Shown: positions 18,862 to 29,329 of the stretch, piece by piece
Layout: each line of letters begins with the position of its first letter
How positions within the stretch are numbered: position 1 is the first letter of the stretch
From: Escherichia phage AV124
DNA: 64,000 nt
Strand: one strand, 5' to 3'
Sequence record: OR352954
Position numbers and translations under genes: made by a program
Notes under the pieces: model-generated
Database searches by the model: none
Told to the model about the DNA's origin: nothing
The model's input: only the letters and a program-made list of their open reading frames with translations

Positions 18862-19695
18862 TTAGTTGCCGGACAAAGAGTCTTCCAAGGCTGAAAGGCG
18901 CTTGTCAAGATCCTCCTGCACCGCTATTGTTGCTCTAAGTATCCAGAATAAAAGCTCTTCTTTTCTGAAAGCGTACTCCTCGCCTGCTGGGTTATCACCA
19001 TTAGCTTCCCACTTATCATAGCAAAATGCTGAGTATTTCGTCCAATCAAGACCATACTTAAGCATAATCTTGATAGCATCTTGTACAGTAGGTCCCGAAT
19101 GGAGTCTAGCTAAACCTTTTTCAGAAGAGTATTTTGCCAACCATTGCCAGACAGAGTCTAGTTTTCCAATCTCATAGAACGCTTTTACTTCTGCGGTTGA
19201 AATTTGGCGAAGGTTGGTTTTCTTTTTCTTATTGGAAGTAGAAATCACACTATTCACAGCATAAACTTGATTCCAACGAAGAGCTGTAGTACCGTTTGAA
19301 ATAAAGTTATCCCGCTTAGGGTAAAATGCTGCTAATGATGTAGATATCTGGACACCATAAGATCTTTGCACTGGGCTTATAGATATTGTATCTGCATATG
19401 TCCCAACTTCGTTTCCAGAGGTGGCAAAATAATACCCATTAGATAGATTTTGCCACTTGTTTGAAAGACTGTCCAGAACTTGCTGGACAGTTGATCCTGA
19501 ATGTGTCCCGACCAAAGAGGCCCCTGAGACATCCATGATATCACCTTTCTTTAAGATTCCAATATCAGAAATGAACTTACTAATAGTGGTTTTTTCTGTA
19601 TCAACAGATGACTGGATGATTAGCTCATCAGTATCTGATACCAACACCTTATCAGAAAGATTTCTTATCTTAATGACTGGCAAATCAATTGACAT
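18862..19695 (-). CDS. tail fibre with C-terminal intramolecular-chaperone-like domain
   Basis: Start at ATG 19695 (MSIDLPVIKIRNLSD); C-terminal region resembles the self-cleaving chaperone domain of phage fibres. Confidence 0.45.
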   Translation of the reverse strand: MSIDLPVIKIRNLSDKVLVSDTDELIIQSSVDTEKTTISKFISDIGILKKGDIMDVSGASLVGTHSGSTVQQVLDSLSNKWQNLSNGYYFATSGNEVGTYADTISISPVQRSYGVQISTSLAAFYPKRDNFISNGTTALRWNQVYAVNSVISTSNKKKKTNLRQISTAEVKAFYEIGKLDSVWQWLAKYSSEKGLARLHSGPTVQDAIKIMLKYGLDWTKYSAFCYDKWEANGDNPAGEEYAFRKEELLFWILRATIAVQEDLDKRLSALEDSLSGN

Positions 19696-19756: not shown

Positions 19757-20557
19757 TTAGGCTGCAATCTTGCCAATCCGCTCCATCAGATATGCAAAAA
19801 TCACATCCTGGGCACTAGTCCCGTAGGAATACAGACCAGGTATCACTATTGCATCTGACAGTACAGACGTCAGAGGTGAAACAGACCCATCTCCTGCTCC
19901 GCCCAAATTCATTTTTTGAGACGTGGTGTATTCAGGTATCGTATAGCCAGTCACCTGTCTGGTTGTTACCGCAGACTGGTCAGACCTTTGGTATGCAATA
20001 GCGTAAGCCCCTGTATTTTTGTTAGAACACATAACCACGGCGCAAAACAGACCAGCCCCCATATTTGATGGAGTGAAAGGGACATCTGGCTGTGTGCCAC
20101 CATTAAAAAACACAGGGAAACTACCAGATGAAGTTGTGCGAATACCAACCCCATGAGGTGTTGTTTCTTGGGTTGCGATGGCTATCCTATCTGTCGGGGC
20201 TGATGATAATGCACCTGAAGGCAACTGGTAGATGAAGGCGAACGTATTGATGTTTGCGTCCATAACCACTTCGGTATCACCAGCCATACCGGATGCACCG
20301 GAGAAATTAATCCCCTGCAAAACAGGCCCATTCAGCTTTGTGGATGGCTCGAGGCCTGACTGGGAATTGAATTTTCCACCATCTACCCGGTTTGCGAGTG
20401 CGGAAACTTTTTGCCCGATCCCTAGTTTGATAAAATCAACCGTTGCAGGCGACCATATAGTGGGGTTTAAATTTGCCAGTGCTATTTCCGCAGCTGTCAA
20501 AGAATAAACGGGAAGCAATGGGTTATTTAACCCTGTGTCAGTGTAAAGAAGGCGCAT
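19757..20557 (-). CDS. structural protein (266 aa)
   Basis: ORF with RBS; Gly/Ser/Thr-rich. Confidence 0.45.
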   Translation of the reverse strand: MRLLYTDTGLNNPLLPVYSLTAAEIALANLNPTIWSPATVDFIKLGIGQKVSALANRVDGGKFNSQSGLEPSTKLNGPVLQGINFSGASGMAGDTEVVMDANINTFAFIYQLPSGALSSAPTDRIAIATQETTPHGVGIRTTSSGSFPVFFNGGTQPDVPFTPSNMGAGLFCAVVMCSNKNTGAYAIAYQRSDQSAVTTRQVTGYTIPEYTTSQKMNLGGAGDGSVSPLTSVLSDAIVIPGLYSYGTSAQDVIFAYLMERIGKIAA

Positions 20558-20569
20558 TTTTTTTTATCC

Positions 20570-23092
20570 TCAGAAAACGTTGATTCGAAAAGCCGGTAAC
20601 CAGTCGTAGAGGGTTACAGATGTATCGTATACCCACGCGATTCCGGCAGAAGATCTTACACACCCTCGTGCGCCCAAGGTCTTACCAGAAGGTTTGACAG
20701 TCGCACCGCTTTGAAGAGGATTTTCTACTGTCGCATAGGAAACCCGTCCAAAACGGCCAGTAGGAGCAGATGCTAGGTTAATCAGCACGCCCTTTCCGTC
20801 CGAGCTGATCGCTATGCTAGAAATGGCAGGGGGTGACGCCGATTCATCTGTGTAGTTAAAACCGTAATTTGCCAGGCCATCAATACTAATATTGGTCGTG
20901 TCTATCACCAGGTTGGTATACGAAGGGATGTTTATTTGTATTTGCGTGGGGGAGTTCCATACAAAACCATTCGGAACCATACCATACCAGCCGCTCGTAA
21001 ACCACTCCTGGATAATTGCTCTTGCCACAGCCGCTCCACGTTTATTTTGTGCAGCACAGGTGAGGTGCAAACCGTCCGTAATAAAATCGTACTGATACAA
21101 GGTATTTACGCAACGGAACTGCTCACGGCCATGTAGGTTGTTTACTGACATCCTTACACGCTGGCCTGTAAACGCACCATGCCCGTCATTGACATACCCC
21201 AGCTGGGTGATGGCGATGATCGGCGGTTCGTTTTGACCAGTCCTTGCCATGATGTCACTGATGACTTGCCTCTGGTACTGCTTCATCCTAGACTCATACA
21301 TCCCTTCCCGCAACCCAGACCAGTCCTCGTCTGACTCTCCTTGCATCCAGTCAACGCAGAGAACAATCGGCAGCCAGCCACGCGCTTTACAGGCCGTCAC
21401 GCAGTCTTCGATTGAATCCAGCATGTATTGGTACACGGCATTACCGCGTTTTTGGTACTCGTATGCCTGCCCGGATTGGGCACACACGATTGATAGTGTG
21501 CGCGGCATGATTCCGGTAGCTGCAGCCATATCGCGAATGAAGGTGTTTGCCAAGCCAGATGCTGCAGTCTCCTTATCAGTGCCGCTTACTGCCTCAACCA
21601 GTGGCACCAGAGTAGTGCTGCGTGCCCCCGTTCTCCTGACCCCGCCAGATAGCATAAACGCGTTATCAGGATAAACTGGCGTCGACGCGATAATGGTTTG
21701 ATCCGCATCTGGGCAATAGCCGCGTGCATTAGACTGCCCGGCAGTTACAAAAATGAAGCATACCGGAACATCTTCTGAATACGGGTAAGCCGTAGACCCT
21801 GACAAATGGAGTCCATACTCAGGGAGGATAGTCATATCATCGCCGCCACCCCCTCCACTCTCCTGGTTAACAAGAACCAAGCCGCTATCGGAGTAGATCC
21901 AGTGATGGCCGCCAACCGTGTAAGCCTCAACGATCTGGTTTGTCGTGGCGTCAACGATCATGCGCCACACCTTTTCACCGCCGATAAATTGCGGCACTGC
22001 CCCCTCAGTTCCGAGCGCATATAACTCAGCCTCTTGCGGCGTGAGCACTTCATAATATTTTCCGTCAGGACCAATTTGTATTAACCGCCCAGCGGCGTTT
22101 AAAAAAGGAGCCACTCTTTTTGTCTCCGGGTCATAACCCGCCAGGGCCACACTGTTTGATGATATCTGGTATGCGTAGTCGTCACGAGCTATCAACCTAT
22201 CTGTCGGATTAAGAACCCCTGAATTATTCACATACTCATTTGCTAGGGTTGAGTCTGAAGAATTTCTAACCCAACAATGTGCCCCATTTGGGATATTACC
22301 TGCCGCAACCTCATTCTGGGCTACCGCCAGCGATTCATATCCCCGGATGGTATTTATAATGGCCCCTGTTCCTGGAACAGCCGCGACTTCTTGAGCAACC
22401 CCTGCATTATTCTTGTACACTTTGAACGCTACAGAGCTACCACTTCCCTGAGGCACTTGGAAATATTGTCCATCCGTAGTTGCAGCAAGACCTTCACTAA
22501 CAGATGCGTATAAGTTTCCCAGCTCAGAGGCCTGCAATGCATATGCTTGTGCCTCATCTCTCGCATCTTCTGCTTGGTCTTTTGCCTCAACTGCTTCGTT
22601 TTTGATTTCTGTTACTTCATCGAGCAGACTCAAACCACCAACAGTTACCCATGCAGATGCTGAAACACCACCTGTTGTAGACGGGGTGGATTTTTCGGGT
22701 ACTGTCTTGGGGAATGTCCCTCCCCATGTGTAACATTGCGCTCCTGCAATATGCCAAATAGCATCGTTGGCATAGGTTAATGTTGCACCATCTTCGAAAG
22801 AACCTTCTACCAAAGTTAGCCCAAGATCATGAAGTGCTCTTCTCCATAATTCTCTCTCATTTGCACGGGCAGTGTCAAGACTTTGTTGGACATGTGTCCC
22901 ATCAGAGGTCCCTATAAGGGAGGCACCGCCATCCGCCGCCAAATCCCCTTTGTTAGCCAAGTCTAAGTCGGAGATAACCTGGGAGACAGTGGCCTTTTTG
23001 GTCTTATCTGGTTGTTCTACAACAAGGTAGTCGTCTCCGACCACTTGGGTTGCGGAGGGTAACTCCGCAATTTTAATTGTATCAAAGGCCAT
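20570..23092 (-). CDS. tailspike with SASA-type carbohydrate esterase domain
   Basis: Start at ATG 23092 (MAFDTIKIAELPSAT...) with RBS GGAGGG; shared N-terminal anchor motif; esterase signatures FVTAGQSNARG and WMQGESD. Confidence 0.65.
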   Translation of the reverse strand: MAFDTIKIAELPSATQVVGDDYLVVEQPDKTKKATVSQVISDLDLANKGDLAADGGASLIGTSDGTHVQQSLDTARANERELWRRALHDLGLTLVEGSFEDGATLTYANDAIWHIAGAQCYTWGGTFPKTVPEKSTPSTTGGVSASAWVTVGGLSLLDEVTEIKNEAVEAKDQAEDARDEAQAYALQASELGNLYASVSEGLAATTDGQYFQVPQGSGSSVAFKVYKNNAGVAQEVAAVPGTGAIINTIRGYESLAVAQNEVAAGNIPNGAHCWVRNSSDSTLANEYVNNSGVLNPTDRLIARDDYAYQISSNSVALAGYDPETKRVAPFLNAAGRLIQIGPDGKYYEVLTPQEAELYALGTEGAVPQFIGGEKVWRMIVDATTNQIVEAYTVGGHHWIYSDSGLVLVNQESGGGGGDDMTILPEYGLHLSGSTAYPYSEDVPVCFIFVTAGQSNARGYCPDADQTIIASTPVYPDNAFMLSGGVRRTGARSTTLVPLVEAVSGTDKETAASGLANTFIRDMAAATGIMPRTLSIVCAQSGQAYEYQKRGNAVYQYMLDSIEDCVTACKARGWLPIVLCVDWMQGESDEDWSGLREGMYESRMKQYQRQVISDIMARTGQNEPPIIAITQLGYVNDGHGAFTGQRVRMSVNNLHGREQFRCVNTLYQYDFITDGLHLTCAAQNKRGAAVARAIIQEWFTSGWYGMVPNGFVWNSPTQIQINIPSYTNLVIDTTNISIDGLANYGFNYTDESASPPAISSIAISSDGKGVLINLASAPTGRFGRVSYATVENPLQSGATVKPSGKTLGARGCVRSSAGIAWVYDTSVTLYDWLPAFRINVF

Positions 23093-23290
23093 TTTTTGCC
23101 CTCCAAGAAGTTTATTTAGAATAGTCAATGATGACTGTCATATAATTGTTAAAGCTTTACATGGCAGGGGTGGGCTATCATACCCGCAACGGTAGGCTGT
23201 TCTTCCCTAACCGTTGCAGGCCGTAGTTAGTGTGAATTGTTGCGTATGTCATTATTGTGGTCTATTTATACAAACAATAATATTCATAAA

Positions 23291-24970
23291 TTACATAGAT
23301 GGAAGTAGTGAAACGTTCACCGATCTAGCCAAACCATCTACGCTGGTAAGCAATACTGTAATTTCCCCATCTGTTGCTGATATAGACAAAGCAACCTTGA
23401 CCCCTGTGCCAGAAAGGCCAATCCTTCCAGAGTTTGCGACAATTCCGCTGGTGATGATATCAAGATAGAAGTTGTTTTCGTGCCTTACACCTATAGGTAT
23501 TTTTATATAATCACTCTGCGCAGTACTACCAATCCTACACTCAATCAATATGGCTCTGGTGATATACGTATCATATATGCCTTGCAAAATATTAGTTTTA
23601 GTGAATGATAATGTTGCGCCAGCAGATGCGGCAAGGATTCCTGAAGAAAGTGGCCCTATTATACGTCTACCATTGACTACCTGATTCATCCCCACGTTTA
23701 CATCGTCATTAATCCCAAGACATCCAGTAATAGACTTCCTTACCGTCGAGGCTTTTTGATTAATGGCAGATGTCACAAATCCAGTCATATCCGAGCCTGA
23801 AATAAGAAGTGTTCCACCTCCAGCCCCAAGTATTGACACGTTGAAAGATGGCGATGTTGTCCCGCCGTCTCCGCTATCGTTTGCACCCTTCCCGGTTCTT
23901 ACGTTTCCAATTTGTAACTTGCCATTATCAATGATGATGAAGTTAGCAGAGTAATCACTTCCCTCTGGCTGGCTTGCGCCGCATCGCCTTACGTCAGCGC
24001 CGGTTACAATCCATTGTGCATCTTTGCCAGCCACTACACCGCCACGCCCAGCGCGGTCGCACAATTCGCCAATAATTGTATTTTCTACGGACTCATAAGC
24101 ATAATAGTTGTCTGTGGCATTCCATTCGTTTCTGCATGAATCAAAGTTGTTGTTATTTGATCCACCAGTCAAGGCAACGCCGCGATTGTTTGCGTTAATC
24201 ACGCAAGCAACAAGGTTGGAATCAATCAGGTTTCTCACACCGTCACCGCACCCAGACACAGAACAACGGGTGGCAAACAACGTCCCGGTGTAACCAGACC
24301 AACCAAGACCAACCGTAAAGTTGTATATGCCGCAACCTTCAAATCGCGTGCCGTTAAATTGCTCTGAAGAATTGGTGGAATAGAGCAGATAAGTAGTTCT
24401 ATCTCTACCGTTAAAAACAATATCCCTGAAAACGTGCCTTTTGTTGGAGTAAAACGGGAACGTTTTTCCTGTAGCCACTTCAATCACAACGCCGCAATCG
24501 TCAAATGCACTGTCTGTCAATGGGTTGTATGGCCTAAAGCAACCCTCACCAATCATAAAGAAACCAGAAGGTAGTGTGGCAGGGGAGTTCCCAAAGATGT
24601 AGCGACCTTTTACCCTAGGCAGGCATAGTGTCATTACTCCGTCAGAAATAGCATCCTTTAACGCATAGTCACAATCAACCTTAGCCCCGGTTGTTGAAAG
24701 AAGGGTTGCACGGTCAGTATCGTTCAAATAGCTAAAAATTGACTTTTGCGTTATTTCATCAAGTGGCGCTTTGCCTTTGTATACTTTACCAGAACCATCC
24801 GGCTGCGCCAAAGCCGCCAGCGTTGACTGCCCAACAACATCTCCAAGATAATTTAAAACTTGAAATAAAGTTGCCTTCTTTGTATCGTCGGGTTGATCGA
24901 CCACGATCAGATCGTCTTCTGTTAGAGTGTCCGCGCTTGGCAACTCTGAAATTTTAACACTCTGTAGCAT
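23291..24970 (-). CDS. tailspike, beta-helix type (559 aa)
   Basis: Start at ATG 24970 (MLQSVKISELPSADT...) with RBS GAGGGG; same N-terminal anchor motif; Asn/Gly-rich repetitive body. Confidence 0.55.
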   Translation of the reverse strand: MLQSVKISELPSADTLTEDDLIVVDQPDDTKKATLFQVLNYLGDVVGQSTLAALAQPDGSGKVYKGKAPLDEITQKSIFSYLNDTDRATLLSTTGAKVDCDYALKDAISDGVMTLCLPRVKGRYIFGNSPATLPSGFFMIGEGCFRPYNPLTDSAFDDCGVVIEVATGKTFPFYSNKRHVFRDIVFNGRDRTTYLLYSTNSSEQFNGTRFEGCGIYNFTVGLGWSGYTGTLFATRCSVSGCGDGVRNLIDSNLVACVINANNRGVALTGGSNNNNFDSCRNEWNATDNYYAYESVENTIIGELCDRAGRGGVVAGKDAQWIVTGADVRRCGASQPEGSDYSANFIIIDNGKLQIGNVRTGKGANDSGDGGTTSPSFNVSILGAGGGTLLISGSDMTGFVTSAINQKASTVRKSITGCLGINDDVNVGMNQVVNGRRIIGPLSSGILAASAGATLSFTKTNILQGIYDTYITRAILIECRIGSTAQSDYIKIPIGVRHENNFYLDIITSGIVANSGRIGLSGTGVKVALSISATDGEITVLLTSVDGLARSVNVSLLPSM

Positions 24971-25057: not shown

Positions 25058-26701
25058 TCATGTTCCAAATCCAACAATTCTATATTTCAAGGATGAGTTG
25101 TTGGTTGTGATGGAGACAACAACACCACCATCGGTTGTCCCATCTACTGTGGACAAAGTAAAGAGTCTTGAACCACCTGTCGTAGAACCAGTTCCTGGTG
25201 TCTGGTCATGATTACCGATAACCGTATAAGTGACCACCCCTTCCCGGTTAGTAGCAATCAGTTCAACAGCCTGCGCCCAACTTGTTTGAGCAGAGGTCCA
25301 AACATCGATAAAAATTTTCTTGGTTGTCCGGTTCGGTATGGTGATAAGTTGAGTATCTCCGGCGGCATAAAGCCCTTTAGTCCTAGTGTGATATTCGATC
25401 CATTGTAGATTATAACCCGGACTGGAAGTTGTCGGTTCTTGAGAGGTGTAGGACCATCTTGTTACTTCCCCGACTTGGCTAACATGCTCAATTTTTCTTG
25501 AAAACTTATCTCTCAGCACGAAACTATAAGACCTCACACCATTGCTTTGGAGGTCTACGTCAGCCTCTTTAGGATTTGGGTAGCTCCCTGTACCACCTAC
25601 TTCGAACAGATCTTTTTTGCCAGCATCTGGCGCAATCCATCCATTTTTATCCATGTTGGCAAAGAATTCCTCAAATGCAAGCCAATACGATTCTTGATGC
25701 CCCAGAAGGTTGGGGTGAACAGTTTGCCCACTGTTAAACAATGAGCTAATGCCATACTTGGCAAGGGCATCGAACCAATATTTTTCGACATCGATAAGAA
25801 CACAACCCATTTCTACAGCAATCTGGCGAATAGCATCGTTTCCTCGCAAGAAACGATGGCCCACCGTAATGGTCACACCATTCCATACTAAATCTACATT
25901 TGACTCGGCAGCGGAAGGGATGATACTATCATCAGAAACGGGGGCCGGGGAAGGGGAAGGCCATACTTGGGCGACACCCGGAGGCATACTCCAAGAATAA
26001 ATGGGGATATTAGGATGTGGGGTGGTAGTAAGAATAACGTCACCACCTGCATCCCTAACATTTCTGATTGCAGCTCTTAATCTTTGCTTAAACCCATTCT
26101 CGTTGAAAGTCTGACCTGCGTTGTAGTTTGCTGTGGGAAAATCATTCATCCCATACACGAATAAGGCAATATCTGGATATGTCCCAGTAGCAACAACAGC
26201 AGGCCATTGGTCAACCAAAAAATTATTGATCGTTGACCCGTTTACAGACCTATTTACAAAGGATAGTGGATATATCCCACCTTTATTAATGGATTTGTTA
26301 AAGAATTCAAAGAATTTAGCCACAGGAGCTTGGGTGGCAGGATCTGGTAATGTTGCACCATTCCCCACAGAAGACCCAAATCCGTACAGTAGAAACTGCG
26401 TCTGCCCAGAGGCACCATGACGATAGGCGGTTAGTTTGTTAATAAGTTGGGGAAAGAGTGCCTGTGAATTCCCCGAAGCAGCCCTAATGGATTCCTCAAC
26501 TGTTTTACCTGTGGCTGTCCCTATAAGGCTCGCACCATCATCATCAGCAAACATAGTTTCTCTGGATATATCCATATCAGAAACTAGTTGACTTAAGGTT
26601 GTCTTTTTCGTAGCATCTACTTGCTCCACAACAAGCAGGTCAGTCCCTGCAAGTGTAGAGGATGGAGGAAGTTCCGAGATCCTTGTGGTTGGTATTGACA
26701 T
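25058..26701 (-). CDS. tailspike with SGNH/GDSL-type hydrolase-like domain
   Basis: N-terminal anchor MSIPTTRISELPPSSTLAGTDLLVVEQVDATKKTT; candidate SGNH blocks (YGFGSS, YGMND); RBS GGGAGAA. Confidence 0.55.
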   Translation of the reverse strand: MSIPTTRISELPPSSTLAGTDLLVVEQVDATKKTTLSQLVSDMDISRETMFADDDGASLIGTATGKTVEESIRAASGNSQALFPQLINKLTAYRHGASGQTQFLLYGFGSSVGNGATLPDPATQAPVAKFFEFFNKSINKGGIYPLSFVNRSVNGSTINNFLVDQWPAVVATGTYPDIALFVYGMNDFPTANYNAGQTFNENGFKQRLRAAIRNVRDAGGDVILTTTPHPNIPIYSWSMPPGVAQVWPSPSPAPVSDDSIIPSAAESNVDLVWNGVTITVGHRFLRGNDAIRQIAVEMGCVLIDVEKYWFDALAKYGISSLFNSGQTVHPNLLGHQESYWLAFEEFFANMDKNGWIAPDAGKKDLFEVGGTGSYPNPKEADVDLQSNGVRSYSFVLRDKFSRKIEHVSQVGEVTRWSYTSQEPTTSSPGYNLQWIEYHTRTKGLYAAGDTQLITIPNRTTKKIFIDVWTSAQTSWAQAVELIATNREGVVTYTVIGNHDQTPGTGSTTGGSRLFTLSTVDGTTDGGVVVSITTNNSSLKYRIVGFGT

Positions 26702-28576: not shown

Positions 28577-29329
28577 TTATGCCACCTTTGTCAATCTTAC
28601 TGCCAGAAGAACAATAGCTGTTGCAACGGTATCGTTAGCTGATGTACCATTTCTACCGACACGGACAGTGGTATGTCTTGTTGGGTCAACAGTTAGATCT
28701 TGCAATATCTGTGATTCAACCGCAATATACGGTGTTGCATTTGCCACGGGAATTACTGCTCCGCCTGCTGGCGCTTGGTTGAATGATTCCCCTGCTGACC
28801 AACTGTTGATCAAACCTGAAAAGCTTACTGAACCAGAATTAGATACCATATTTGACCAGATCAAGGAGATTCTCATCTTTGTCCAATGGGACGGGAGGTC
28901 TATCATCTTTGATACGGAAGCATCTACACCGTGATTAAACTGCCAGCCCCCAAGACGTTGTGCGACAGCTCCGTAAGTTGCTGTTCCAATAACGAGATCG
29001 AAATCTTTCGCAGGAATGACTATGGAAGTTACAGCATTTTCAGGATCTGCGGTAATTGCGTCAACGGATGTTTGAAGTTCTGTAAATTGTTGTTTTGTTG
29101 GTAGCTGGCTAGCTGTCTGTTCTGCGCTATCTGCTGCTTGGACGGCTTCATCTTTGGCAGCAACCGCCTCATCCTTGATGTCAGTAATGTCTTGAATAAT
29201 TCCAATATCATTCATTGCCTTATCAAATGTAGCTTTCTTAGTTCCACCTGCCTGCTCAAATATGATAAGGTCGTTACCAGAAACGCTATCTGCATCAGGA
29301 AGCTCTGGAATACGGATTGTAAGACTCAT
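28577..29329 (-). CDS. receptor-binding protein with N-terminal anchor (250 aa)
   Basis: MSLTIRIPELPDADSVSGNDLIIFEQAGGTKKATF matches the anchor shared by three other spikes; RBS AAGGAAA. Confidence 0.5.
   Translation of the reverse strand: MSLTIRIPELPDADSVSGNDLIIFEQAGGTKKATFDKAMNDIGIIQDITDIKDEAVAAKDEAVQAADSAEQTASQLPTKQQFTELQTSVDAITADPENAVTSIVIPAKDFDLVIGTATYGAVAQRLGGWQFNHGVDASVSKMIDLPSHWTKMRISLIWSNMVSNSGSVSFSGLINSWSAGESFNQAPAGGAVIPVANATPYIAVESQILQDLTVDPTRHTTVRVGRNGTSANDTVATAIVLLAVRLTKVA

What the first reader, a model, noticed from the sequence alone, without database searches (positions are those of the whole stretch)
20570..23092. Tailspike carrying a sialate-O-acetylesterase-type (SASA) domain
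The signatures FVTAGQSNARG and WMQGESD match the two conserved blocks of the SASA/DUF303 carbohydrate esterase family. This predicts that the spike deacetylates a surface glycan (O-antigen, capsule or LPS core substituent) rather than cleaving the backbone.
Basis: partly seen in the sequence, partly recalled or inferred. Interest (0 to 1): 0.45.

Follow-up and report, generated by a model that had tools for sequence, protein, structure and literature searches.

The report
Phage tail fibre with acetyl-esterase domain
This gene of a large Klebsiella phage encodes a tail fibre whose tip is very probably an enzyme that strips acetyl groups off a bacterial surface sugar; this kind of fibre is already described, so the case is fairly ordinary.

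Summary

The window is a Mydovirus-like Klebsiella myophage with several receptor-binding proteins. The fibre is a mosaic. Residues 1-300 are the Mydovirus anchor and stalk. Residues 300-840, together with the next gene (266 aa, unannotated), are 87-93% identical to a cassette in temperate Klebsiella and E. coli phages, where NCBI already names the fibre 'sialate O-acetylesterase'.

SGNH-esterase fibres in Klebsiella prophages and in Mydovirus were described in 2025-2026. This is therefore a new member of a known kind. Esterase activity and the substrate were not determined. The most interesting loose end is the small partner gene, which sits directly downstream almost everywhere I looked.

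The parts
20570..23092 (-). Complete gene for the 840-aa esterase tail fibre (the stop codon 20570-20572 is included).
   Evidence: ORF list and translation. P0001 is 99% identical, 840 aa, and named 'MAG TPA: tail spike'. PHROG 4201 'tail fiber protein' covers aa 173-840, E 1.3e-51.
23100..23104 (-). Shine-Dalgarno sequence GGAGG, 7 nt upstream of ATG 23092.
   Evidence: Read directly from the sequence.
22943..23092 (-). N-terminal anchor peptide of about 50 aa (IKIAELPSA...TKKAT...). At least four RBP genes of this cluster share it.
   Evidence: Alignment A1 of the N-termini of the ORFs at 18862-19695, 20570-23092, 23291-24970 and 25058-26701 gives 33-40% identity. The stretch also matches the N-terminal parts of PHROG 7760 and 23437.
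22637..22810 (-). Tail_spike_N domain (TSP1/gp66 type), aa 95-152.
   Evidence: Pfam PF18668, E 4.6e-16. phmmer against the PDB matches 8x8m, 9occ, CBA120 TSP4 and TSP3 (5w6h, 5w6f), 4oj5 and G7C gp63.1 (4qnl).
22193..22615 (-). Stalk region, aa ~160-300, probably coiled coil. Still of Mydovirus type.
   Evidence: PHROG 38670, 19652 and 31000 match aa 163-303. This stretch is about 95% identical to KpS11 gp053 up to about aa 300. 'Coiled coil' is inferred from the heptad-like, Ala/Glu-rich sequence.
22181..22204 (-). Approximate recombination junction (aa ~297-304) between the Mydovirus N-terminal part and the prophage-type C-terminal module.
   Evidence: Mydovirus DNA hits cover + strand query nt 1656-2523 (gene nt 1-868), and temperate-phage hits cover query nt 1-1624 (gene nt 900-2523). 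In BLASTP against the ST16-OXA48phi5.2 fibre, identity is low over aa 245-300 and high from about aa 303 (87% over the whole 596-aa alignment). Identity to KpS11 collapses after about aa 300. GC rises to 0.52-0.54 over 21000-22200.
21008..21754 (-). SASA-type SGNH carbohydrate-esterase domain, aa 447-695.
21719..21751 (-). Block I, FVTAGQSNARG. The Ser454 codon (21731-21733) encodes the predicted nucleophile.
   Evidence: Translation. G452 is conserved in 89/90, and Q453 and S454 in 90/90 homologues. The block aligns with GQSN of At4g34215/2APJ.
21329..21349 (-). Block III, WMQGESD (aa 582-588). This is the SASA-family QGE(S/N)D signature, predicted to contribute to the oxyanion hole and substrate pocket.
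   Evidence: Translation. G585 is conserved in 75/90, E586 in 84/90 and D588 in 66/90. The block aligns with WYQGESD of 2APJ.
21065..21076 (-). Block V, DGLH (aa 673-676). His676 is the predicted general base and Asp673 the third triad member.
   Evidence: Translation. H676 is conserved in 90/90 and D673 in 61/90. The block aligns with DNLHLT of 2APJ.
20573..20995 (-). C-terminal beta-sandwich domain (aa ~700-840). It always travels with the esterase domain.
19757..20557 (-). Partner gene, 266 aa, unannotated. It starts 12 nt after the fibre's stop codon and was co-transferred with the esterase module.
   Evidence: By tblastn only the same two temperate phages carry it, at 88-90% aa identity. 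A homologous or equally sized ORF lies directly downstream in 23 of 24 close prophage loci, in 4 of 5 distant IMG/VR loci, in 3 of 3 Acinetobacter/Vibrio phages and in 6 of 7 further contexts. It has no Pfam or PHROG family. The SD-like GAGGA overlaps the fibre's stop codon.

Best explanation
The gene encodes one of several receptor-binding proteins of a Mydovirus-like Klebsiella myophage.

Proposed domain roles:
- A shared N-terminal peptide of about 50 aa and a TSP1/gp66-type N-domain dock the protein to the baseplate/RBP assembly.
- A stalk of about 140 aa projects the distal module.
- The distal module (aa ~300-840) is a SASA-type SGNH carbohydrate O-acetylesterase followed by a beta-sandwich domain.

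Proposed mechanism:
- The fibre, probably a trimer, binds an O-acetylated surface polysaccharide of the host (capsule or O-antigen).
- It hydrolyses the acetyl ester using Ser454 as nucleophile, with His676/Asp673 as base and relay. The GQSN backbone and the QGESD block form the oxyanion hole.
- The polymer backbone stays intact. Deacetylation would let the virion release and re-bind as it moves through the glycan layer, or expose the next receptor, as shown for E. coli phage G7C gp63.1 and inferred for the Vi phages.

Origin: the distal module plus the next gene (266 aa) forms a cassette exchanged by recombination at about aa 300 with temperate Klebsiella/E. coli phages.

Shown here: domain identity, conservation of the catalytic residues, the predicted fold, the mosaic origin, and the conserved position of the partner gene directly downstream.
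Inferred: enzymatic activity, trimeric state, the substrate, and the role in adsorption.
For: - Domains: Pfam SASA above threshold, plus Tail_spike_N.
- Catalytic residues: the three SGNH/SASA blocks are present and in order. S454 and H676 are invariant, and G452, Q453, G550 and E586 are invariant or nearly so, in 90 homologues down to 25% identity.
- Virion context: baseplate wedge, hub, tape measure and other fibre genes lie around it, and the anchor peptide is shared with three neighbouring RBPs.
- Module distribution: the module occurs at the C-terminus of 500-900-aa proteins in 985 clusters at 50% identity. These sit behind GpJ, Mu-type baseplate or other tail genes.
- Slot: the same Mydovirus slot in KpS11 holds another SASA allele.
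- Mosaic origin.
- Literature: two Klebsiella prophage SGNH fibres hydrolyse pNPA (PMC13123978). Klebsiella phage D7a, which carries an esterase RBP 80% identical to the KpS11 allele, makes no plaque halo (PMC9989827).
Against: - No activity data exist for this protein or for any close homologue.
- Asp673 is conserved in only 61 of 90 homologues, so the family may work as a Ser-His dyad or use another acid.
- The model is a monomer, and active-site geometry could not be inspected.
- The substrate is unknown. The module is shared at about 77-84% DNA identity with E. coli prophages. That fits either a glycan common to both genera or rapidly drifting specificity.
- SGNH folds can also be acyltransferases or lipases.
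Confidence: 0.8

Rival explanations
1. The SASA domain is a catalytically dead, lectin-like binding module. It recognises an acetylated sugar but does not hydrolyse it.
For: Many phage RBP enzyme folds have been co-opted for binding. Asp673 is only 68% conserved in the family. No activity data exist.
Against: The nucleophile Ser and the His are invariant in 90 of 90 diverse homologues, and the GQS and QGE blocks are maintained. That is the pattern of purifying selection on catalysis. Related prophage SGNH fibres are active on pNPA (PMC13123978).
Confidence: 0.08
2. The domain acts on a non-carbohydrate or non-surface-polysaccharide ester. Candidates are lipid A or phospholipid acyl chains (lipase/deacylase), or O-acetylated peptidoglycan during penetration.
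Confidence: 0.07
3. The real receptor-recognition unit is the fibre together with the 266-aa downstream protein. In this reading the partner is a LamG/ConA-like lectin or tip adhesin that sets specificity, and the esterase is an accessory 'clearing' activity. Alternatively the partner is only an assembly chaperone.
For: - The partner gene lies directly downstream across very different phage types and hosts.
- It was co-transferred with the module into the Mydovirus.
- Partner proteins form one family through transitive phmmer links of 26-48 bits.
- There are weak LamG signals: the neurexin LNS domains are the only PDB hits (E 0.11-0.5), and the VvAW1 partner matches Laminin_G_3 at E 0.12 over the whole profile.
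- The partners in fLi-Aba02 and fLi-Aba03 are reported as ConA-like (PMC11058221).
Against: - None of the fold signals for the Klebsiella partner is statistically significant.
- The link to the Acinetobacter/Vibrio partners is not significant.
- KpS11's 246-aa neighbour shows no sequence similarity.
- There is no evidence that the partner is in the virion.
This reading extends the main explanation rather than excluding it.
Confidence: 0.4

Closest known systems
SGNH/SASA-domain tail fibres of Klebsiella pneumoniae prophages (PLoS Biol 2026, PMC13123978; Viruses 2025, PMC12115436)
   Same: The distal 540 aa are 86-92% identical to proteins in hundreds of K. pneumoniae chromosomes and in temperate phages ST16-OXA48phi5.2 and KpnBHU6. 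NCBI names these 'sialate O-acetylesterase'. The predicted role is the same: capsule or glycan deacetylation instead of depolymerisation.
   Different: Here the module is grafted onto the anchor and stalk of a strictly lytic-type, roughly 145-kb Mydovirus. I could not establish whether the two assayed proteins (164_08-KL2 and 174_38-KL55) belong to this SASA lineage, because the supplements hold no matching sequence.
Cyanopodophage Pan3 tailspike (PDB 9VYH)
   Different: Identity is only about 19-20%. The host is a cyanobacterium and the phage is a podovirus with a different N-terminal part. I found no paper describing it in the library.
E. coli phage G7C tailspike gp63.1 (PDB 4QNL), an O-antigen deacetylase
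   Same: It is a virion RBP that removes an O-acetyl group instead of cleaving the polymer. Its N-terminal domain is homologous to aa 96-152 here (phmmer E 7e-5). It has an SGNH-fold catalytic domain.
Vi-phage acetyl-esterase tail proteins (Salmonella phages ViI, Vi06)
   Same: An esterase domain on tail proteins of unrelated phage morphotypes targets an O-acetylated capsule. Predicted structures of the ViI and Vi06 proteins match the model (Foldseek E 1.2e-7).
   Different: The structural similarity is much weaker (TMq 0.41). The substrate is the Vi antigen of S. Typhi. That these proteins deacetylate Vi rests on my recollection of Pickard et al. 2010, which I did not read here.
Cellular SASA-family esterases: At4g34215 (2APJ), XAC1771/CE20 (7KMM), NanS (3PT5), SIAE (8F9R)
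   Different: These are soluble enzymes acting on plant xyloglucan or xylan, or on 9-O-acetyl sialic acid. They have no fibre context and lack the phage-type C-terminal beta-sandwich. The name 'sialate O-acetylesterase' should not be read as a substrate assignment here.
SASA-type fibres of Acinetobacter siphophages (fEg-Aba01, fLi-Aba02/03, SH-Ab 15497, DMU1), Phab24, Vibrio VvAW1 and Serratia Opt-155
   Same: The same C-terminal module at about 25% identity. Each has the same arrangement, with a small ORF directly downstream. One GenBank record already says 'putative sialate O-acetylesterase tail fiber protein'.
   Different: The hosts and N-terminal parts differ. Their downstream proteins are not detectably related in sequence to the Klebsiella partner.

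Membership tests
SASA / PF03629 (SGNH clan carbohydrate esterases) | Match to the family HMM above the curated gathering score | tested here: met
   51.1 bits against 24.8, E 1.7e-13, covering profile positions 4-226 of 226.
SASA / PF03629 (SGNH clan carbohydrate esterases) | Block I GQSN with the nucleophilic Ser | tested here: met
   GQSN at aa 452-455. Q453 and S454 are invariant in 90 of 90 homologues. The block aligns to GQSN of 2APJ.
SASA / PF03629 (SGNH clan carbohydrate esterases) | Block III QGE(S/N)D | tested here: met
   WMQGESD at aa 582-588. E586 is conserved in 84 of 90. The block aligns to WYQGESD of 2APJ.
SASA / PF03629 (SGNH clan carbohydrate esterases) | Block V DxxH with the catalytic His (and Asp) | tested here: met
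   DGLH at aa 673-676. H676 is conserved in 90 of 90 and D673 in 61 of 90.
SASA / PF03629 (SGNH clan carbohydrate esterases) | SGNH alpha/beta/alpha fold, closest to solved SASA-family members | tested here: met
SASA / PF03629 (SGNH clan carbohydrate esterases) | Acetyl-ester hydrolase activity | not testable with these tools
   This needs a pNP-acetate assay or polysaccharide NMR/MS with an S454A control.
Phage esterase module of the Pan3 tailspike type (SASA domain plus C-terminal beta-sandwich) | Both domains are present as one unit at the C-terminus of a tail protein | tested here: met
G7C gp63.1-type esterase tailspikes | A catalytic domain of the same SGNH family as gp63.1 | tested here: not met
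G7C gp63.1-type esterase tailspikes | TSP1/gp66-type N-terminal domain | tested here: met
   PF18668, E 4.6e-16. 4qnl_A residues 101-155 match aa 96-152, E 7e-5.
Beta-helix (pectin-lyase-like) depolymerase tailspikes | A right-handed parallel beta-helix catalytic domain | tested here: not met
Mydovirus multi-RBP apparatus | The anchor peptide shared by the RBPs, and the conserved slot between baseplate and fibre genes | tested here: met
   N-terminal alignment of four RBPs. The flanks are 91-93% identical at DNA level to Mydoviruses. KpS11 gp053 is about 95% identical over aa 1-300 in the same slot.

The most novel reading that the evidence does not exclude
The SASA-esterase fibre and the unannotated protein of about 250-280 aa encoded directly downstream are an obligate two-component receptor-binding cassette, an 'eraser' enzyme plus a LamG-like lectin or tip. 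The cassette moves as a unit between lytic myoviruses, lambda-like, Mu-like and other temperate phages of Klebsiella, E. coli and other bacteria. In several prophages it sits beside an Acyl_transf_3 O-acetyltransferase. If so, the same element would carry both the 'writer' and the 'eraser' of a surface-glycan acetyl mark, which would link entry with lysogenic conversion or superinfection exclusion.
Probability: 0.3. Interest if true: 0.55.

Novelty: new member of a known kind. Interest (0 to 1): 0.3.

Why it matters
Esterase RBPs change how host range should be predicted for Klebsiella phages. They recognise an acetylation state that K- or O-locus typing does not capture, and they produce no halo, so depolymerase screens miss them. 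This locus is a clear case of a lytic, therapy-type myophage borrowing such a module and its partner gene from prophages, which documents gene flow between temperate and virulent phages at the RBP locus. The partner gene that is nearly always found directly downstream is an unstudied, easily testable component. The finding itself, a SASA domain on a tail fibre, is already in the literature and in NCBI annotation of the prophage homologues. It adds an example rather than a concept.

Tried and rejected
- **Single-sequence AlphaFold of aa 301-840.** This gave an unusable model (pLDDT 38.9). Only the 90-sequence alignment worked. Residues 300-440 therefore remain unmodelled at useful confidence.
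- **The search for related loci with the 90-sequence alignment.** It failed for lack of a conserved stretch. A 15-sequence alignment worked.
- **phmmer of the single protein against the PDB.** It found only the N-domain and a non-significant 2APJ hit. The family profile was needed to reach 9VYH and 2APJ.
- **Papers on 9VYH or the Pan3 tailspike.** None were found in the library.
- **Matching this family to the assayed prophage esterases of PMC13123978.** I searched the supplements for the motifs and found no sequences.
- **Fold of the 266-aa partner.** There were no significant Pfam, PHROG or PDB hits. Profile-profile links to the Acinetobacter/Vibrio partners were not significant.
- **Depolymerase.** Considered and rejected: no beta-helix.
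- **Peptidoglycan O-acetylesterase or lipase.** Considered and rejected: the fold clusters with carbohydrate acetylesterases.
- **Acetyltransferase.** Considered and rejected: a distal virion domain has no acyl donor outside the cell (my reasoning), and the nearest characterised relatives are hydrolases.
- **TTG start at 23128.** Considered and rejected: the SD sequence and the public homologue's length favour ATG 23092.
- **Substrate from lysogen serotypes.** I did not try to infer this. My recollection that E. coli HS is O9 is memory only and was not used.
Full report
**1. The observation**

The ORF listing gives a minus-strand ORF at 20570..23128 (852 aa from a TTG). That ATG is preceded by GGAGG at 23100-23104 with a 7-nt spacer. 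A 99% identical public protein (P0001, 'MAG TPA: tail spike') is also 840 aa, so I take ATG 23092 as the start.

FVTAGQSNARG is encoded at 21719-21751, WMQGESD at 21329-21349, and a third block, DGLH, at 21065-21076. A degenerate GQSNA-coding pattern occurs only once in the 64-kb window. Pfam gives two domains:
- Tail_spike_N (PF18668) at aa 95-152, E 4.6e-16.
- SASA (PF03629) at aa 447-695, covering profile positions 4-226 of 226, with 51.1 bits against a gathering score of 24.8 and E 1.7e-13.

**2. The surroundings**

The 14-34 kb stretch of the window is 91-93% identical at DNA level to Klebsiella Mydovirus-group myophages of about 136-150 kb, such as K18PH07C1, K45PH128C2, KB57, BIS47 and NDO71. 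Coverage is only 58-70%, because the RBP genes differ.

The neighbouring genes are tape measure, baseplate hub and wedge, and several 'tail fiber' PHROGs. The ORFs at 18862-19695, 20570-23092, 23291-24970 and 25058-26701 share an N-terminal peptide of about 45-50 aa (IKI.ELPSA...TKKAT...), which fits a common docking site. The protein is therefore one of several RBPs of a multi-RBP myophage.

**3. Anatomy of the protein**

- **aa 1-50:** the shared anchor peptide.
- **aa 95-152:** a TSP1/gp66 N-domain. It also matches solved tailspikes 8x8m, CBA120 TSP4 and TSP3, 4oj5 and G7C gp63.1 (4qnl).
- **aa ~160-300:** a stalk (PHROGs 38670, 19652 and 31000).
- **aa ~300-440:** a beta-rich linker that I could not model well.
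- **aa 447-695:** the SASA domain.
- **aa ~700-840:** a beta-sandwich.

PHROG 4201 ('tail fiber protein') covers aa 173-840 end to end.

**4. Is the esterase likely to be active?**

An exhaustive HMMER search with aa 401-840 finds 985 clusters (at 50% identity) with E up to 1e-3, and 357 with E up to 1e-10. In nearly all of them the match spans both the esterase and the C-terminal domain, at the C-terminus of proteins of 500-900 aa.

I aligned 90 of these, at 25-88% identity. Conservation is as follows:

| Residue | Conserved in |
|---|---|
| Q453, S454, H676 | 90/90 |
| G452, G550 | 89/90 |
| E586 | 84/90 |
| D673 | 61/90 |

The profile aligns GQSN, QGE.D and D..H with the same blocks of At4g34215 (2APJ).

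With this alignment AlphaFold gives pLDDT 92.6 and pTM 0.90. A single-sequence attempt had failed. Fold matches are:
- **Foldseek:** 9VYH, the cyanopodophage Pan3 tailspike, is best (E 1.7e-24, TMq 0.73). It is followed by XAC1771/CE20 (7KMM), 1ZMB and 2APJ.

The catalytic domain is thus specifically SASA-type, and its catalytic residues are under strong conservation. Activity itself is inferred.

**5. Mosaic origin**

DNA hits to Mydoviruses cover only the first ~870 nt of the gene. Hits to the 47-kb temperate phages ST16-OXA48phi5.2 and KpnBHU6 cover the last ~1620 nt at 85% identity.

At protein level aa 401-840 are 93% identical to those two phages, and 29% or less identical to every other hit among the 50,697 phage records searched. 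BLASTP against the prophage fibre gives 87% identity over the aligned aa 245-840, low before aa ~300 and high from about aa 303.

KpS11 gp053, which occupies the same slot, is about 95% identical up to aa ~300 and then diverges. It nevertheless still carries a distant SASA-like domain (IIYGQSLSTG, WMQGETD, DNAHL; Pfam SASA just below threshold). GC rises to 0.52-0.54 over 21000-22200, against 0.38-0.47 in the flanks.

The slot is therefore an 'esterase-fibre' slot in which alleles are exchanged at about aa 300. The allele in this window came from, or is shared with, temperate phages. More than 100 protein clusters at 86-92% identity lie in K. pneumoniae chromosomes, and some in E. coli. NCBI already names most of them 'sialate O-acetylesterase'. 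The cassette is present in 18 of 5426 complete E. coli genomes. Two metagenomic Mydovirus contigs carry the identical 840-aa plus 266-aa pair.

**6. The partner gene**

The next ORF (19757..20557, 266 aa) starts 12 nt after the fibre's stop codon, and its SD-like GAGGA overlaps that stop. By tblastn it is found only in the same two temperate phages, at 88-90% identity.

An ORF of 190-279 aa directly follows the SASA-fibre gene in these places:
- 23 of the 24 close IMG/VR prophage loci; in the other the stored DNA ends just after the fibre gene.
- 4 of the 5 distant IMG/VR loci.
- Acinetobacter phages Phab24 and fEg-Aba01, and Vibrio phage VvAW1.
- E. coli HS.
- KpS11.
- 6 of 7 further diverse family members, whose contexts are lambda-GpJ-type, Mu-baseplate-type and even a head-module position.

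The enterobacterial and metagenomic partners form one family through transitive phmmer links: window to P0121p at 229 bits, to P0134p at 27-30 bits and to P0140p at 16-18 bits. P0140p links to L032, P0125p, P0134p and P0202p at 32-48 bits.

No Pfam, PHROG or source name exists for any of them. The only fold hints are weak:
- A profile of ten partners hits only neurexin LNS (LamG) domains in the PDB, at E 0.11-0.5.
- The VvAW1 partner matches Laminin_G_3 at E 0.12 over the whole profile.
- PMC11058221 reports a ConA-like superfamily hit for fLi-Aba02/03 gp22.

Profile-profile comparison does not significantly join the Acinetobacter/Vibrio partners or KpS11 gp052 to the Klebsiella family. I therefore treat 'LamG-like lectin or tip' as a hypothesis. 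That the gene lies directly downstream so consistently, and was transferred with the module, is an observation.

**7. Mechanism**

The best-supported reading is a virion-borne carbohydrate O-acetylesterase that binds and deacetylates a host surface polysaccharide without depolymerising it. This is analogous in function to G7C gp63.1. It also agrees with recent findings:
- SGNH fibres dominate Klebsiella prophage RBPs, and two of them hydrolyse pNPA (PMC13123978).
- Prophage tailspike esterases resembling sialate O-acetylesterases occur in Acinetobacter and Klebsiella (PMC12115436).
- SGNH RBPs occur in Mydovirus and are recombination-prone (bioRxiv 10.64898/2026.05.12.724579).
- Klebsiella phage D7a, with an esterase RBP, lacks haloes (PMC9989827). 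D7a's fibre is 80% identical to the KpS11 allele.

The substrate cannot be assigned from sequence. The Pfam and NCBI word 'sialate' is a family label, not evidence for sialic acid.

One hint that O-acetylated glycans are the relevant biology is that several prophage versions have an Acyl_transf_3 gene next to the cassette. These are E. coli HS and L024-L026 (PF01757, E 2e-15), the P0121 locus (Acyl_transf_3 plus SGNH) and the P0164 locus.

**8. Rivals**

- **Binding-only pseudo-enzyme.** Unlikely, given the invariant Ser and His.
- **Lipase or peptidoglycan esterase.** Unlikely, given the fold clustering.
- **Depolymerase.** Excluded: no beta-helix.
- **Two-component RBP with the partner protein.** This extends the main reading rather than replacing it.

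**9. Novelty and verdict**

The domain call is right. The predicted function is reasonable and matches a class described in 2017-2026. Near-identical modules are already annotated as sialate O-acetylesterase. The exact protein exists in public metagenome data, annotated only as 'tail spike'.

It is a new member of a known kind, with modest interest (0.3). What is not in the papers I read is the partner gene, found directly downstream almost everywhere, and its recurrent neighbourhood with acetyltransferase genes.

Noticed in passing
window 19757..20557 (-): A 266-aa ORF with no Pfam or PHROG family and no name in any source starts 12 nt after the esterase-fibre gene and was co-transferred with it. 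A small ORF of 190-279 aa directly follows SASA-fibre genes in nearly every related locus examined (Klebsiella, E. coli, Acinetobacter, Vibrio and metagenomic). The hints of a LamG/ConA-like fold are weak and not significant.
   Followed up: partly
L036 7171-8262 (E. coli HS, ECHS_RS10305); L024-L026 807-1898; L038 6345-8268; L044 8901-9312: Acyl_transf_3 (PF01757) genes, one of them fused to an SGNH domain, lie next to the SASA-fibre cassette in several prophages. These elements would then carry both a putative glycan O-acetyltransferase and an O-acetylesterase fibre. Whether this is more than the usual placement of accessory 'moron' genes beside tail-fibre genes was not tested.
   Followed up: partly
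window 18862..19695, 20570..23092, 23291..24970, 25058..26701 (all -); possibly also 28577..29329: Four RBP genes, perhaps five, start with the same peptide of about 45-50 aa (IKI.ELPSA..DD.LVV.Q.D.TKKAT), presumably a common docking motif of the Mydovirus multi-RBP apparatus.
   Followed up: partly
window 18862..19695 (-): A 277-aa protein consists of little more than the shared anchor peptide and a Peptidase_S74 intramolecular-chaperone domain (aa 154-214). After self-cleavage only a stub would remain. It is conserved in Mydoviruses (PHROG 23437, E 1.8e-163; KpS11 gp051).
   Followed up: no
window 21000..22200: GC content is 0.52-0.54 over the esterase-coding part, against 0.38-0.47 in the flanking phage genes. 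This fits recent acquisition from a higher-GC (prophage or host-like) source.
   Followed up: yes
L041 3001-5607 (metagenomic contig SRR12983872_1130): A distant member of the SASA-module family (868 aa, followed by a 279-aa partner ORF) sits between the major capsid gene and the head-tail connector genes, not in a tail-fibre locus.
   Followed up: no
L037 5163-7868 (Klebsiella phage KpS11 gp053); MH688453 TSK1 and ON602741 VLCpiD7a: The orthologous Mydovirus slot in KpS11 carries a different SASA-like allele with an extra insertion of about 130 aa. That allele is about 80% identical to the fibre of the lytic siphoviruses TSK1 and D7a. This is a second independent case of esterase-module exchange across morphotypes.
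   Followed up: partly
window 23291..24970 (-) and 25058..26701 (-): The two neighbouring RBPs (559 and 547 aa; PHROG 6518 and 18703) have no Pfam hit. The 559-aa protein has an Asn/Gly-rich, repeat-like sequence that looks compatible with a beta-helix depolymerase. This was not examined.
   Followed up: no
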